Origin: a virus
Virus genome (UHGV): UHGV-0228494
Direction: 5' to 3' (one strand)
DNA length: 45,812 bases
Shown piece by piece: positions 16,530 to 28,690 of the stretch. A program made the translations under genes and the position numbers. The first letter of the stretch is position 1, and the number at the start of each line of letters is the position of its first letter. Under the pieces are notes generated by a model. The model was not told the DNA's origin, searched no databases, and was given only the letters and a program-made list of their open reading frames with translations.

Positions 16530-19083
16530 ACCGGTAGGCGATCTGGTCGTTGATTTGAGTCTGGATGCGGCCAGATTTGACGAGCAGATGGCCAGAGTCA
16601 GGCGTCATTTTTCCGGTACGGAAAGTGATGCGAAAAAAACAGCGGCAGTCGTTGAACAGTCGCTGAGCCGACAGGCGCTGGCTGCACAGAAAGCGGGGAT
16701 TTCCGTCGGGCAGTATAAAGCCGCCATGCGTATGCTGCCTGCACAGTTCACCGACGTGGCCACGCAGCTTGCAGGCGGGCAAAGTCCGTGGCTGATCCTG
16801 CTGCAACAGGGGGGGCAGGTGAAGGACTCCTTCGGCGGGATGATCCCCATGTTCAGGGGGCTTGCCGGTGCGATCACCCTGCCGATGGTGGGGGCCACCT
16901 CGCTGGCGGTGGCGACCGGTGCGCTGGCGTATGCCTGGTATCAGGGCAACTCAACCCTGTCCGATTTCAACAAAACGCTGGTCCTTTCCGGCAATCAGGC
17001 GGGTCTGACGGCAGATCGTATGCTGGTCCTGTCCAGAGCCGGGCAGGCGGCAGGGCTGACGTTTAACCAGACCAGCGAGTCACTCAGCGCACTGGTTAAG
17101 GCGGGGGTAAGCGGTGAGGCTCAGATTGCGTCCATCAGCCAGAGTGTGGCGCGTTTCTCCTCTGCATCCGGCGTGGAGGTGGACAAGGTCGCTGAAGCCT
17201 TCGGGAAGCTGACCACAGACCCGACGTCGGGGCTGACGGCGATGGCACGCCAGTTCCATAACGTGACGGCGGAGCAGATTGCGTATGTTGCTCAGTTGCA
17301 GCGTTCCGGCGATGAAGCCGGGGCATTGCAGGCGGCGAACGAGGCCGCAACGAAAGGGTTTGATGACCAGACCCGCCGCCTGAAAGAGAACATGGGCACG
17401 CTGGAGACCTGGGCAGACAGGACTGCGCGGGCATTCAAATCCATGTGGGATGCGGTGCTGGATATTGGTCGTCCTGATACCGCGCAGGAGATGCTGATTA
17501 AGGCAGAGGCTGCGTTTAAGAAAGCAGACGACATCTGGAATCTGCGCAAGGATGATTATTTTGTTAACGATGAAGCGCGGGCGCGTTACTGGGATGATCG
17601 TGAAAAGGCCCGTCTTGCGCTTGAAGCCGCCCGAAAGAAGGCTGAACAGCAGAGTCAACAGGACAAAAATGCGCAGCAGCAGAGCGATACCGAAGCGTCA
17701 CGGCTGAAATATACCGAAGAGGCGCAGAAGGCTTACGAACGGCTGCAGACGCCGCTGGAGAAATATGCCGCCCGTCAGGAAGAACTGAATAAGGCCCTGA
17801 AAGACGGAAAAATCCTGCAGGCAGATTACAACACGCTGATGGCGGCAGCGAAAAAGGACTATGAAACGACACTGAAAAAGCCGAAGCAGTCCGGCGTGAA
17901 GGTGTCTGCGGGCGATCGTCAGGAAGACAGTGCTCATGCTGCCCTGCTGACGCTTCAGGCTGAACTCCGGACGCTGGAGAAGCATGCCGGAGCAAATGAG
18001 AAAATCAGCCAGCAGCGCCGGGATTTGTGGAAGGCGGAGAGTCAGTTCGCGGTACTGGAGGAGGCGGCGCAACGTCGCCAGCTGTCTGTACAGGAGAAAT
18101 CCCTGCTGGCGCATAAAGATGAGACGCTGGAGTACAAACGCCAGCTGGCTGCACTTGGCGACAAGGTTACGTATCAGGAGCGCCTGAACGCGCTGGCGCA
18201 GCAGGCGGATAAATTCGCACAGCAGCAACGGGCAAAACGGGCCGCCATTGATGCGAAAAGCCGGGGGCTGACTGACCGGCAGGCAGAACGGGAAGCCACG
18301 GAACAGCGCCTGAAGGAACAGTATGGCGATAATCCGCTGGCGCTGAATAACGTCATGTCAGAGCAGAAAAAGACCTGGGCGGCTGAAGACCAGCTTCGCG
18401 GGAACTGGATGGCAGGCCTGAAGTCCGGCTGGAGTGAGTGGGAAGAGAGCGCCACGGACAGTATGTCGCAGGTAAAAAGTGCAGCCACGCAGACCTTTGA
18501 TGGTATTGCACAGAATATGGCGGCGATGCTGACCGGCAGTGAGCAGAACTGGCGCAGCTTCACCCGTTCCGTGCTGTCCATGATGACAGAAATTCTGCTT
18601 AAGCAGGCAATGGTGGGGATTGTCGGGAGTATCGGCAGCGCCATTGGCGGGGCTGTTGGTGGCGGCGCATCCGCGTCAGGCGGTACAGCCATTCAGGCCG
18701 CTGCGGCGAAATTCCATTTTGCAACCGGAGGATTTACGGGAACCGGCGGCAAATATGAGCCAGCGGGGATTGTTCACCGTGGTGAGTTTGTCTTCACGAA
18801 GGAGGCAACCAGCCGGATTGGCGTGGGGAATCTTTACCGGCTGATGCGCGGCTATGCCACCGGCGGTTATGTCGGTACACCGGGCAGCATGGCAGACAGC
18901 CGGTCGCAGGCGTCCGGGACGTTTGAGCAGAATAACCATGTGGTGATTAACAACGACGGCACGAACGGGCAGATAGGTCCGGCTGCTCTGAAGGCGGTGT
19001 ATGACATGGCCCGCAAGGGTGCCCGTGATGAAATTCAGACACAGATGCGTGATGGTGGCCTGTTCTCCGGAGGTGGACGATGA
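16522..19083 (+). CDS. H: Tail tape measure protein H
   Basis: 853 aa, same length as lambda gpH; MAEPVGDLVVDLSLDAARFDEQMARVRRH... Confidence 0.97.
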   Translation: MAEPVGDLVVDLSLDAARFDEQMARVRRHFSGTESDAKKTAAVVEQSLSRQALAAQKAGISVGQYKAAMRMLPAQFTDVATQLAGGQSPWLILLQQGGQVKDSFGGMIPMFRGLAGAITLPMVGATSLAVATGALAYAWYQGNSTLSDFNKTLVLSGNQAGLTADRMLVLSRAGQAAGLTFNQTSESLSALVKAGVSGEAQIASISQSVARFSSASGVEVDKVAEAFGKLTTDPTSGLTAMARQFHNVTAEQIAYVAQLQRSGDEAGALQAANEAATKGFDDQTRRLKENMGTLETWADRTARAFKSMWDAVLDIGRPDTAQEMLIKAEAAFKKADDIWNLRKDDYFVNDEARARYWDDREKARLALEAARKKAEQQSQQDKNAQQQSDTEASRLKYTEEAQKAYERLQTPLEKYAARQEELNKALKDGKILQADYNTLMAAAKKDYETTLKKPKQSGVKVSAGDRQEDSAHAALLTLQAELRTLEKHAGANEKISQQRRDLWKAESQFAVLEEAAQRRQLSVQEKSLLAHKDETLEYKRQLAALGDKVTYQERLNALAQQADKFAQQQRAKRAAIDAKSRGLTDRQAEREATEQRLKEQYGDNPLALNNVMSEQKKTWAAEDQLRGNWMAGLKSGWSEWEESATDSMSQVKSAATQTFDGIAQNMAAMLTGSEQNWRSFTRSVLSMMTEILLKQAMVGIVGSIGSAIGGAVGGGASASGGTAIQAAAAKFHFATGGFTGTGGKYEPAGIVHRGEFVFTKEATSRIGVGNLYRLMRGYATGGYVGTPGSMADSRSQASGTFEQNNHVVINNDGTNGQIGPAALKAVYDMARKGARDEIQTQMRDGGLFSGGGR

Positions 19084-19409
19084 AGACCTTCCGCTGGAAA
19101 GTGAAACCCGGTATGGATGTGGCTTCGGTCCCTTCTGTAAGAAAGGTGCGCTTTGGTGATGGCTATTCTCAGCGAGCGCCTGCCGGGCTGAATGCCAACC
19201 TGAAAACGTACAGCGTGACGCTTTCTGTCCCCCGTGAGGAGGCCACGGTACTGGAGTCGTTTCTGGAAGAGCACGGGGGCTGGAAATCCTTTCTGTGGAC
19301 GCCGCCTTATGAGTGGCAGCAGATAAAGGTGACCTGCGCAAAATGGTCGTCGCGGGTCAGTATGCTGCGTGTTGAGTTCAGCGCAGAGTTTGAACAGGTG
19401 GTGAACTGA
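19080..19409 (+). CDS. M: Minor tail protein M
   Basis: 109 aa, MKTFRWKVKPGMDVASVPSVRKVRFGDGYSQRAP... Confidence 0.95.
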   Translation: MKTFRWKVKPGMDVASVPSVRKVRFGDGYSQRAPAGLNANLKTYSVTLSVPREEATVLESFLEEHGGWKSFLWTPPYEWQQIKVTCAKWSSRVSMLRVEFSAEFEQVVN

Positions 19410-27650: not shown

Positions 27651-28349
27651 TTACTGCGAAAGTTTATTAATGGAAAGGAAACCGCCAAAATTGCCGACAT
27701 TCCTGCGCAGTTCACACCCGCGCATGCACTTGCTGCATCTGTCCTTACGGATATCCGTGGTGGGGTTGTCGAACTCATCCGCCACCGCAGGACCGTTATA
27801 CCCGCATTCATCTCCCCGGTAATCCCACATACAGGTGTTCGCCAGCATGATGCGACCGGGAAACAGCGCCCCATCCGTCTCGGTCGGTGTAGCCAGCACA
27901 AACGAGGCCGTCATGGCTGTCAGCTGCGACATCTGCTCCACCACCCAGCGGTCACTCAGCTCCTGCTCCGGGTCCGCCTCCGGATTGCCCGCAACGAAAT
28001 TCACCGCATCCAGAAAACGGGCATACACCCGGCGGCGGACCACCGTGGCCCCCACCAGACTCTGCAGGTCTTCCGCCATCCCGGTGACCAGACCGAACAG
28101 ATTGGACACCGTCAGCGACGGTCTGGCACTGCTGCCCTTCCCGCTCATCTCAAAACCGCTGCCGTCAATCGGGTATGCCTGATATTGCCGCCCCTGCCAG
28201 GTGACCGGCTCCCCTTTTTCATTCAGCTCATTACAGAAAAAATACCGCTCACCGCCCTGTACCGTCAGGTCGATTTCCCAGAGTACCACCCGCGGTGACT
28301 GCTCTGACTTAACCGACTCGTTCAGACTTTCTTCGCGAATATCCTGCAT
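27651..28349 (-). CDS. L: Minor tail protein L (prophage B)
   Basis: 232 aa, MQDIREESLNESVKSEQSPRVVLWEIDLTVQGG... Confidence 0.92.
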   Translation of the reverse strand: MQDIREESLNESVKSEQSPRVVLWEIDLTVQGGERYFFCNELNEKGEPVTWQGRQYQAYPIDGSGFEMSGKGSSARPSLTVSNLFGLVTGMAEDLQSLVGATVVRRRVYARFLDAVNFVAGNPEADPEQELSDRWVVEQMSQLTAMTASFVLATPTETDGALFPGRIMLANTCMWDYRGDECGYNGPAVADEFDNPTTDIRKDRCSKCMRGCELRRNVGNFGGFLSINKLSQ

Positions 28350-28690
28350 CAGTTCACCACCTGCTCAATCGTACAACTGAAATCACTGTGCCTGGCGTTA
28401 TCTGTGACGCTCCACTCCCGGCACACCACCCTCACCGTCAGGTTATGTTTCGGCGGTCGCCACAAAAAGGCACGGTAACCACCATGCCACGATAAAAATT
28501 CATCCAGCCAGCGCCGGGTTGGTTCATCCGTCACCCGGAACACCGCCTGAAACGTCTTCAGTCTGGCATTAAGTCCCGTCGGTCGGCGCTGTTCATAACC
28601 GTCACCAAACCGAACCCTCACCACCGACGGTTTCTCACTCACCTGCATCCCTTCACGCGGGACCAGATGCAGCGTTTTTATCTCAGCCAC
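28349..28690 (-). CDS. M: Minor tail protein M (prophage B)
   Basis: 113 aa, diverged homolog of lambda M in the conserved position between H and L. Confidence 0.85.
   Translation of the reverse strand: MAEIKTLHLVPREGMQVSEKPSVVRVRFGDGYEQRRPTGLNARLKTFQAVFRVTDEPTRRWLDEFLSWHGGYRAFLWRPPKHNLTVRVVCREWSVTDNARHSDFSCTIEQVVN

What the first reader, a model, noticed from the sequence alone, without database searches (positions are those of the whole stretch)
19080..28690. Mirror-image tail-tip modules (M-L-K-I-J) form a diverged ~4.6 kb inverted repeat
M, L, K, I and J occur in the same order on both strands, arranged symmetrically about ~23.7 kb (19080..23641 on +, 23794..28690 on -). The protein pairs are clearly homologous but not identical. 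In the one stretch I compared by eye (23579-23641 against 23794-23857) the DNA is near-palindromic with about 2 mismatches in ~60 bp. Such a long inverted repeat can drive inversion, be unstable during replication, and confuse assemblers.
Basis: seen in the sequence. Interest (0 to 1): 0.55.

Follow-up and report, generated by a model that had tools for sequence, protein, structure and literature searches.

The report
Two prophages joined tail-to-tail
The mirror-image tail genes are the matching tail-tip modules of two different E. coli prophages, fused head-on inside their J genes at a breakpoint found in no other public sequence; this is most likely a mis-join in the assembly, or otherwise a rare private chromosomal inversion, and not a functional inverted repeat.

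Summary
M-L-K-I-J occur on both strands and converge at about 23.7 kb. DNA identity is about 76% over 4.25 kb, and the innermost 63 nt have 2 mismatches.

It is not a duplication. The left arm (1-23641) is 100% identical to a lambda-like prophage at icd/sitABCD. The right arm (23796-45812) is 100% identical to an HK97-head lambdoid prophage at ompW/trp. In complete genomes such as TUM9975 both prophages have intact J genes (1160 and 1157 aa), point the same way and lie about 185 kb apart.

In the window both J genes are truncated and lack the receptor-binding end. The 154-nt "spacer" is J_A's own next 154 nt, inverted. The centre therefore holds two junctions:
- a blunt strand flip with no microhomology (23641|23642);
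- a colinear B-to-A switch inside a 47-nt block identical in both genes.

Neither junction occurs in 5,426 complete E. coli genomes, phage or plasmid records, viral, metagenome or genome contigs, or 5.8 billion proteins. Homologous recombination cannot produce a tail-to-tail J-J join. This J segment is also a well-known collapse and break point in draft assemblies.

Estimated probabilities: chimeric mis-join about 0.6, genuine 185-kb inversion about 0.3. Interest is low.

The parts
1..23641 (+). Left arm: nin/Q/lysis region, lambda-type head and tail genes of the icd/sitABCD-site lambda-like prophage ('A'), ending inside J.
   Evidence: 100% identical to ST131-type genomes such as DFK.1, apart from a 2,540-bp ISEc23 that the window lacks. 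About 97% identical to phage lambda's late region.
19080..19409 (+). M_A, minor tail protein.
   Evidence: PF05939, E = 1e-39.
19409..20107 (+). L_A.
   Evidence: PF05100, E = 3e-101.
20112..20855 (+). K_A, with JAB and NlpC/P60 domains.
   Evidence: PF14464 and PF00877. Gene coordinates taken from the DFK.1 annotation.
20792..21394 (+). I_A.
   Evidence: PF06805. Annotated.
21455..23641 (+). J_A nt 1-2187 (aa 1-729 of 1160). The ORF stops at 23647, after one foreign codon.
   Evidence: Identical to the first 2187 nt of the parental J_A. It has only PF24801, PF13550 and PF24421, and lacks PF24489, PF09327 and PF12421, which intact J proteins have.
23641..23642 (.). Junction 1: blunt strand flip joining J_A nt 2187 to the reverse complement of J_A-type nt 2341.
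   Evidence: 0 nt of microhomology on either side. Absent from every collection searched.
23642..23795 (-). The 154-nt 'spacer': J_A nt 2188-2341 in inverted orientation. On the minus strand it continues the J reading frame.
   Evidence: 154 of 154 nt match J_A. It differs from J_B of TUM9975 at 11 positions, which are the only mismatches in the whole right arm.
23785..23831 (-). Junction 2 zone: a 47-nt block (J_A nt 2152-2198) identical in J_A and J_B, within which the minus-strand J switches from B-type to A-type sequence.
   Evidence: SNP map. The hybrid is absent from complete genomes (best match 98.9%) and from the 29 contigs that share the local 81-mer.
23796..25976 (-). J_B nt 1-2181. 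The full minus-strand ORF is 23493-25976 (827 aa) and reads across junction 1 into a 49-aa antisense tail.
   Evidence: 100% identical to J_B of TUM9975. PF24489 is only partly present and PF09327 and PF12421 are absent. Translation.
26319..26900 (-). I_B.
   Evidence: PF06805. Annotated.
26897..27640 (-). K_B.
   Evidence: PF14464 and PF00877. Annotated.
27651..28349 (-). L_B.
   Evidence: PF05100, E = 4e-93.
28349..28690 (-). M_B.
   Evidence: PF05939, E = 5e-28.
23796..45812 (-). Right arm: lysis genes, HK97-type head and tail genes of the ompW/trp-site lambdoid prophage ('B'), ending inside J.
   Evidence: 100% identical to TUM9975 and to IPCEC42/48. The prophage sits beside ompW and trpA.

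Best explanation
The mirror image is not one repeated element. It is the orthologous tail-tip modules (M-L-K-I-J) of two different lambdoid prophages of an ST131-like E. coli:
- prophage A is lambda-like and sits at icd/sitABCD;
- prophage B has an HK97-type head and sits at ompW/trp.

The arms resemble each other at about 76% only because lambdoid phages share this module. In normal genomes the two prophages point the same way, lie about 185 kb apart, and each has an intact J gene.

In the window the two late operons converge, and both J genes are cut at about two-thirds of their length. J_A stops at nt 2187. The sequence then continues as the reverse complement of a J that is B-type up to nt ~2151 and A-type from 2199 to 2341. 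This creates a blunt flip junction and, 154-190 nt away, a colinear B-to-A switch.

I think the most likely origin is a chimeric join made during sequencing or assembly. Two sequence paths, each running from a prophage's lysis region into the repeated central part of J, would have been connected end to end. The B-to-A switch would then be a mis-traversal or polishing cross-talk inside the shared block.

On either origin, the joined structure encodes no functional tail tip and has no function of its own.

Shown here: the anatomy, the parentage, the truncation of both J genes, the uniqueness of both junctions, and the absence of microhomology. Inferred: that the join was made in silico or in vitro rather than in the cell.
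For: Parentage:
- Each arm is 100% identical to a separate prophage.
- TUM9975 carries both, co-oriented, with J_A at 1,995,277 (+) and J_B at 2,179,967 (+), both intact.

Uniqueness of the junctions:
- 0 of 5,426 complete E. coli genomes span the junction, although 1,816 carry at least 80% of the left arm and 625 carry at least 80% of the right arm.
- There are no matches in phage records, plasmid records, or viral, genome and metagenome contigs.
- Neither truncated J protein is on record among 153 billion gene positions.
- No protein among 5.8 billion carries the fusion peptide.

Nature of the junctions:
- Junction 1 is blunt, with 0 nt of microhomology.
- Two abnormal joints lie within 190 nt of each other.
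- J_A is cut just as J_A/J_B similarity rises from about 62-80% to more than 90%.
- Both cuts lie inside short exact blocks shared by J_A and J_B.

Assembly behaviour of this segment and locus:
- This J segment occurs thousands of times as 'partial' proteins on 200-620 bp contigs, the mark of a collapsed repeat.
- Several metagenome and viral contigs end within a few hundred nt of it.
- Draft contigs carrying M_B are mostly 5-50 kb.
- The locus is visibly troublesome to assemble. pBone7_2, deposited as a plasmid, is a chromosome fragment running from trp into prophage B. Four chromosome records start inside prophage B.
Against: - No raw reads are available, so the artefact is not demonstrated.
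- The breakpoints lie 36 and 19 nt inside their shared blocks, so no single k-mer length explains both.
- A valid de Bruijn graph path needs a shared k-1 overlap at a join, and junction 1 has none. A plain graph mis-traversal therefore cannot account for it, and a concatenation, scaffolding or chimeric-read step would be required.
- The sequence is clean up to the junction on both sides, with 100% identity to the parents and no N.
- J_A nt 1-2187 on the plus strand and nt 2188-2341 on the minus strand together keep every base exactly once. That is what a true inversion breakpoint looks like.
- Draft assemblies often read straight through J_A (contigs of 185 and 188 kb with J intact).
Confidence: 0.6

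Rival explanations
1. This is a genuine private inversion of about 185 kb covering the icd-ompW interval. Its two ends lie in J_A (2187|2188) and in a hybrid J_B::J_A (at nt 2341).

A plausible route is replication-based. A broken end or stalled fork in J_B invades J_A within the 47-nt identical block, which gives junction 2. It copies 154-190 nt and then switches to the opposite strand 154 nt behind, which gives the fold-back at junction 1. Alternatively, J_A first converts the central part of J_B by gene conversion, and an illegitimate inversion follows.

Both prophages lose their receptor-binding J ends and become tail-defective.
For: - The two prophages are co-oriented neighbours, so a single inversion gives exactly this tail-to-tail arrangement.
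- Every base of J_A nt 1-2341 is kept exactly once across the flip.
- The sequence is clean at the junction.
- Junction 2 lies in a block of perfect identity, as expected for homology-guided invasion.
- A 154-nt offset is typical of template switching within a replication fork (general knowledge).
- Natural J alleles are mosaic in this same stretch (PCN033 and E01).
- Natural deletions also break here, as in the J::tail-fibre-assembly fusions found on 7 contigs.
- Inversions are frequent in ST131 (PMC11739808).
Against: - The junction is seen in no other genome or contig.
- Junction 1 has 0 nt of microhomology. From general knowledge, template-switch and tandem-inversion-duplication junctions usually use short homologies or quasi-palindromes.
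- E. coli lacks classical end-joining (general knowledge).
- The route requires two rare events within 190 nt.
- The published ST131 inversions I read about are attributed to homologous repeats such as rRNA operons, or to repeat-rich flanking regions. Recombination between homologous repeats cannot produce this geometry.
Confidence: 0.3
2. The two modules form one long diverged inverted repeat, arising from an inverted duplication, and that repeat itself drives inversion and replication instability.
For: - There is real inverted similarity over about 4.25 kb.
- As single-stranded DNA the innermost 63 nt pair with 2 mismatches (-113.7 kcal/mol, z = -14.7).
Against: - The arms have separate parents at 100% identity, with different heads, tape measures (19% aa identity) and integration sites, so they are not a duplication.
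- Identity is about 76% and the longest exact matches are 63, 53 and 36 nt.
- The 154-nt spacer and diverged arms do not make a palindrome of the SbcCD-substrate type (general knowledge).
- Inverting the sequence between the arms would only flip the 154-nt centre.
Confidence: 0.05
3. This is a programmed invertible host-range switch of the kind found in Mu G, P1 C and e14 P, in which a site-specific invertase flips alternative tail genes.
For: - Tail genes lie in inverted orientation.
- ST131 prophages do have tail-fibre inversion switches.
- A partial recombinase gene lies downstream of prophage B's tail fibres in the parent genome, outside the window.
Against: - Parental annotations covering the window's range show no invertase gene.
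- The mirrored parts are the conserved upstream genes and the N-terminal two-thirds of J. They are not alternative C-terminal receptor-binding ends, and both receptor-binding ends are missing.
- By eye, the breakpoint sequences do not form an invertase crossover site. This was not searched formally.
- The arrangement exists in no other genome.
Confidence: 0.01

Closest known systems
Phage lambda tail-tip gene module M-L-K-I-J (tail tip complex)
   Same: Both arms have the same gene order and Pfam families. The left arm is about 97% identical to lambda itself.
   Different: Both J genes stop at aa 729 and about aa 778 of about 1160. They lack the Phage_Tail_Tip (PF09327) and Ig_GpJ_C (PF12421) receptor-binding end. 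No lom or side-tail-fibre genes follow either J.
Large chromosomal inversions between prophages or other repeats in E. coli (O157:H7, ST131)
   Same: The breakpoints fall in homologous prophage genes of one chromosome. ST131 shows frequent inversions (PMC11739808; bioRxiv 10.1101/2022.05.07.487787).
   Different: Those inversions arise by homologous recombination between inverted repeats and leave colinear hybrid genes. Here the parent genes are direct repeats, and the junction is antiparallel, blunt and non-homologous.
Fold-back or template-switch junctions (tandem inversion duplications in Salmonella and E. coli; quasi-palindrome template switching, e.g. PMC7202029)
   Same: The strand switches within 154 nt at one locus. 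J_A nt 2152-2341 is inverted relative to J_A nt 1-2187.
   Different: There is no quasi-palindrome or microhomology at the switch point. Beyond 36 nt the second arm belongs to a different prophage. No duplication is visible within the window.
Assembly chimeras and collapsed repeats at multi-copy prophage genes
   Same: The junction lies in the J segment that most often forms tiny stand-alone contigs and contig ends. It is private to this sequence.
   Different: There is no shared k-1 overlap and no consistent k-mer offset. There is no N gap. Read evidence is unavailable.
Invertible tail-fibre segments (Mu G, P1 C, e14 P; Gin/Cin/Pin)
   Same: Inverted copies of tail genes face each other.
   Different: There is no invertase gene and no crossover sites were recognised. 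The wrong part of the gene is mirrored, and the arms come from two prophages.

Membership tests
Lambda-type tail tip module (M-L-K-I-J) | Genes with the Phage_min_tail, Phage_tail_L, JAB+NlpC/P60, Lambda_tail_I and GpJ domains, in that order, after the tape measure gene. | tested here: met
   Both arms. The annotations of the parent genomes agree.
Lambda-type tail tip module (M-L-K-I-J) | A complete J protein (about 1130-1160 aa) with the C-terminal Phage_Tail_Tip and Ig_GpJ_C receptor-binding region. | tested here: not met
   The window's J ORFs are 730 and 827 aa and lack PF09327 and PF12421. Intact parental J proteins have both domains.
Single inverted duplication (one element with two arms) | Both arms derive from one sequence or locus. 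| tested here: not met
   The arms are 100% identical to two different prophages, at icd and at ompW. The tape measure proteins are only 19% identical.
Inversion by homologous recombination between prophages | The parental repeats are in inverted orientation, and the recombinant junction is colinear and lies within shared sequence. | tested here: not met
   The parents are co-oriented. Junction 1 is antiparallel with 0 nt of homology. Only junction 2 is colinear and lies within a 47-nt identical block.
Fold-back or template-switch junction (tandem-inversion-duplication type) | The strand switches at one locus over a short distance. | tested here: met
   J_A nt 2188-2341 is inverted directly after J_A nt 2187.
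Fold-back or template-switch junction (tandem-inversion-duplication type) | Microhomology or a quasi-palindrome at the switch point. | tested here: not met
   0 nt on either side.
Site-specific invertible segment (Gin/Pin/Hin type) | An adjacent serine invertase gene and paired crossover sites of about 26 bp flanking alternative C-terminal tail-fibre exons. | tested here: not met
   No recombinase is annotated within the window's range in either parent genome. The mirrored parts are the 5' genes and the N-terminal part of J. Crossover sites were judged by eye only.
Long palindrome or cruciform (SbcCD substrate) | Near-perfect arms of at least about 100-150 bp with a short spacer. | tested here: not met
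   Only a 63-bp stem with 2 mismatches forms around a 154-nt loop. Beyond it the arms are about 76% identical.
Assembly chimera or mis-join | The junction is not supported by reads. Its breakpoints lie at repeat boundaries, and it is absent from independent assemblies. | tested here: inconclusive
   It is absent from all the collections searched, and its breakpoints lie in the commonly collapsed J repeat. There is no k-mer signature, and read support cannot be tested with these tools.

The most novel reading that the evidence does not exclude
The junction is real. An ST131-like E. coli carries a private inversion of about 185 kb covering the icd-ompW interval. It was made by a replication-based event with two template switches: homology-guided invasion from J_B into J_A, followed by a strand switch 154 nt behind with no microhomology. 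The event inactivated the host-range protein of two prophages at once. This would be a base-resolved natural example of an MMBIR-like (microhomology-mediated break-induced replication) complex rearrangement between direct prophage repeats in a bacterial chromosome.
Probability: 0.3. Interest if true: 0.45.

Novelty: already known. Interest (0 to 1): 0.2.

Why it matters
As a biological element it matters little. The similarity between the arms is the ordinary modular homology of lambdoid phages, and the joined structure encodes two dead J genes.

It matters in practice as a warning. A prophage caller would read this 45.8-kb stretch as one phage genome, when it is two late operons from different prophages facing each other. 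Host-range, taxonomy or completeness calls based on it would be wrong.

If the junction proves real, it documents an unusual non-homologous inversion between neighbouring prophages in a pandemic E. coli lineage. It also shows the conserved central part of J acting as a rearrangement hot spot.

Tried and rejected
1. A single symmetric palindrome. Rejected: mirror identity falls to about 54% across the centre, and the 154-nt spacer is J_A sequence, not a loop of unrelated DNA.

2. A de Bruijn graph signature, in which both breakpoints sit k-1 bases inside shared blocks. The offsets are 36 and 19 nt relative to the J_A/J_B blocks, and exact blocks shared with third-type J alleles (2152-2259 and 2152-2280) do not fit either.

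3. The minus-strand B::A hybrid J as a natural allele.
- An 81-mer across the switch occurs in 29 contigs.
- All 29 are a third, A-like J type that diverges from the window at 23859 and beyond.
- PCN033 and E01 are only partly A-type.
- R4's J_B differs from TUM9975's at only 2 positions and shows no conversion.

4. The published '115 kb inversion' in ST131 isolates R4 and others (PMC11739808) as the same event. R4 has prophage B, ompW and J_B in the normal arrangement, so the lead was closed.

5. Proteins covering more of the fusion peptide. P0032, P0083 and P0093 are frameshifted J fragments. P0062-64 are J fused to a tail-fibre assembly gene. None is a fold-back.

6. The window's outer ends as exact ORF or contig boundaries. 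The left end abuts a parental CDS end, but no ORF ends at either window edge, so this was inconclusive.

7. pBone7_2 as an analogous fold-back contig. It is a plain chromosome fragment.

8. Deletion as the origin. Impossible, because the parents are co-oriented and a deletion would give a colinear hybrid J.

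
Full report
OBSERVATION

Pfam assigns M (PF05939), L (PF05100), K (JAB + NlpC/P60), I (PF06805) and J (GpJ domains) in the same order on the plus strand (19080-23647) and on the minus strand (28690-23493). A BLAST of the window against its own reverse complement gives 19390-21390 against 28368-26329 at 76.8% identity, and 21455-23641 against 25976-23796 at 76.2%. The repeat finder reports the same blocks at 74-84% identity.

Identity by gene pair is M 43% aa / 55% nt, L 78/76, K 86/85, I 55/59 and the 5' part of J 75/76. The tape measure proteins just outside the arms are only 19% identical. 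GC skew changes sign at about 24 kb, as expected for two converging operons.

WHAT THE ARMS ARE

The left arm (1-23641) matches many E. coli chromosomes at 100% identity. Its only difference from them is a 2,540-bp IS66-family element (ISEc23 or ISCro1) in gpFI, which the window lacks. In strain DFK.1 this is a lambda-like prophage followed by sitABCD and a partial icd gene, with an intact J of 1160 aa. It is about 97% identical to phage lambda's own late region.

The right arm matches strains TUM9975 and IPCEC42/48 at 100% identity. There it is a lambdoid prophage with an HK97-type head, inserted at ompW beside the trp operon, with an intact J of 1157 aa followed by lom (interrupted by an IS21-family element) and tail-fibre genes.

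TUM9975 carries both prophages. J_A lies at 1,995,277-1,998,759 and J_B at 2,179,967-2,183,440, both on the plus strand of the record, 184.7 kb apart. The arms are therefore orthologous modules of two different phages, not two copies of one sequence. Their native arrangement is head-to-tail, not mirror-image.

THE CENTRE

J_A in the window is identical to the parental J_A up to nt 2187 and then breaks. The 154 nt that follow (23642-23795) match J_A's own next 154 nt (2188-2341) at 154 of 154 positions, but in inverted orientation. They differ from J_B at 11 positions, and those are the only mismatches between the whole right arm and TUM9975. From 23796 rightwards the sequence is pure J_B.

The centre therefore contains two junctions:
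- Junction 1 (23641|23642) joins J_A nt 2187 to the reverse complement of nt 2341. It is blunt, with 0 nt of microhomology.
- Junction 2 lies within 23785-23831, a 47-nt block (J_A nt 2152-2198) that is identical in both genes. Within it the minus-strand J passes colinearly from B-type to A-type sequence.

J_A/J_B identity rises from about 62-80% to 84-97% per 100 nt from about nt 2188, with the last dense cluster of differences ending at nt 2124. Both truncated J genes lack the Phage_Tail_Tip and Ig_GpJ_C domains that intact J proteins have. The minus-strand ORF runs on across junction 1 into a 49-aa antisense tail. Neither arm can encode a working tail tip.

IS THE JUNCTION SEEN ANYWHERE ELSE?

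No.
- None of 5,426 complete E. coli genomes has a match spanning the junction. Every hit stops at window position 23642 or a few bases beyond. Yet 1,816 genomes carry at least 80% of the left arm and 625 carry at least 80% of the right arm.
- Phage records and plasmid records have no spanning match. Exact scans of viral, genome and metagenome contigs for a 27-mer across junction 1 found nothing.
- Neither truncated J protein is on record among 153 billion gene positions.
- A search of 5.8 billion proteins with the 119-aa fusion peptide found only ordinary J fragments that cover the J part (59% of the query).
- An 81-mer across junction 2 does occur in 29 contigs. All of them are a third, A-like J type that departs from the window at 23859 and at junction 1. 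The B::A hybrid is therefore also private to this window.
- Natural B-like alleles (PCN033, E01) are partly A-type in this stretch, so mosaicism here is normal, but none equals the window.

HOW IT COULD ARISE

Homologous recombination between two J genes always leaves a colinear hybrid J, whatever their orientation. It cannot create a tail-to-tail J-J join. A deletion between co-oriented genes also gives a colinear hybrid. Two options remain.

(a) A chimeric join made in vitro or in silico. The points in favour are:
- the junction is private to this sequence;
- the join is blunt;
- two abnormal joints lie within 190 nt;
- both lie at the edge of the J segment that draft assemblies most often collapse.
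That segment appears thousands of times as 'partial' J proteins on 200-620 bp contigs, for example P0007 with 3,506 members, and several contigs end within a few hundred nt of it. Contigs carrying M_B are mostly 5-50 kb. The locus also causes trouble in long-read assemblies. The 'plasmid' pBone7_2 is a chromosome fragment running from trp into prophage B, and four chromosome records begin inside prophage B near its terminase gene.

(b) A real inversion of the 185-kb interval, with ends at J_A 2187|2188 and at nt 2341 of a hybrid J_B::J_A. This could arise by invasion of J_A from J_B in the identical block, followed by a strand switch 154 nt behind. The points in favour are:
- every base of J_A nt 1-2341 is kept exactly once;
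- the sequence is clean up to the junction;
- junction 2 lies in perfect homology;
- this J stretch is a natural rearrangement site, as shown by J::tail-fibre-assembly fusions on 7 contigs.

Against (a): no single k-mer length explains both breakpoints, a valid graph path would need an overlap that junction 1 lacks, and many drafts read straight through J_A.

Against (b): junction 1 has no microhomology, the route needs two rare events together, and no second genome shows it.

I put (a) at about 0.6 and (b) at about 0.3. Only reads or a PCR can decide between them.

The arms are about 76% identical, and the longest exact inverted matches are 63, 53 and 36 nt. From general knowledge this is a poor substrate for RecA-dependent recombination. 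Any exchange between the arms would in any case only flip the 154-nt centre.

As single-stranded DNA the centre folds into a 63-bp stem with a 154-nt loop (-113.7 kcal/mol, z = -14.7). That is far from the long, near-perfect, short-spacer palindromes known to be unstable in E. coli.

A programmed invertible switch is excluded. There is no invertase gene in the window's range, the wrong part of the genes is mirrored, and both receptor-binding ends are absent.

The published ST131 '115 kb inversion' (PMC11739808) was checked in strain R4 and does not involve this junction.

VERDICT

The feature is the ordinary homology of lambdoid tail-tip modules, brought face to face by one private, non-homologous breakpoint in J. 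That breakpoint is most likely a mis-join and less likely a rare inversion. It is not a new kind of element. The practical message is that this 45.8-kb stretch is not one phage genome.

Noticed in passing
window 13253 (gpFI, 13143-13580 +): The window has a clean, empty insertion site where all the best-matching complete genomes carry a 2,540-bp IS66-family element (ISEc23 or ISCro1) in gpFI. IS-free copies are common in draft assemblies. The source strain therefore predates or lacks that insertion.
   Followed up: partly
window 3694-4067 vs 42970-43346, and 4592-4750 vs 42518-42692: The mirror similarity also appears in the lysis regions of the two prophages (81.7% and 76.8% identity). The two late operons are roughly colinear mirror images over their whole length, with unrelated heads and tape measure genes in between.
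   Followed up: no
window ~41.2-41.6 kb (small terminase gene 41049-41612, minus strand); loci L048, L050, L051, L053: Four independent chromosome records of about 5.1-5.3 Mb begin 12.5-12.7 kb upstream of M_B, at or just upstream of the right-arm prophage's small terminase gene. It looks as if assemblers linearised the chromosome at this prophage's packaging end, which hints that the ompW-site prophage is induced and packaged in culture.
   Followed up: no
J central segment, about aa 640-900 (window ~23,370-23,641 and 23,642-24,060); proteins P0001-P0114: This part of J occurs thousands of times as 'partial' proteins on 200-620 bp contigs, a collapsed multi-copy repeat in draft E. coli assemblies. 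P0062-P0064 are J fused after 'FWFSEKRI' to a tail-fibre assembly domain on 7 contigs, including a 4.8-Mb chromosome. That is a natural deletion breakpoint in the same stretch.
   Followed up: partly
L056 (CP054240.1, pBone7_2, 27,006 bp): A record deposited as a circular plasmid of an ST131 bone-infection isolate is really a chromosome fragment. It runs from trpL through trpB, the partial ompW region and tail-fibre remnants into the J-L tail genes of the ompW-site prophage. It has very few annotated CDS, which suggests a noisy assembly.
   Followed up: partly
window 4118-4411 (minus strand): The left-arm prophage carries the iss (increased serum survival, bor-like) lipoprotein gene just after its lysis genes. 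In parent genomes an inverse autotransporter and an alpha/beta hydrolase lie just upstream of the window's left end, and sitABCD follows the tail-fibre genes. The window's position 1 falls exactly one base after the hydrolase CDS.
   Followed up: no
window 20449-20511 vs 27241-27303: The longest perfect inverted match between the arms (63 nt) lies in the K genes, which are the best-conserved pair (86% aa identity).
   Followed up: no
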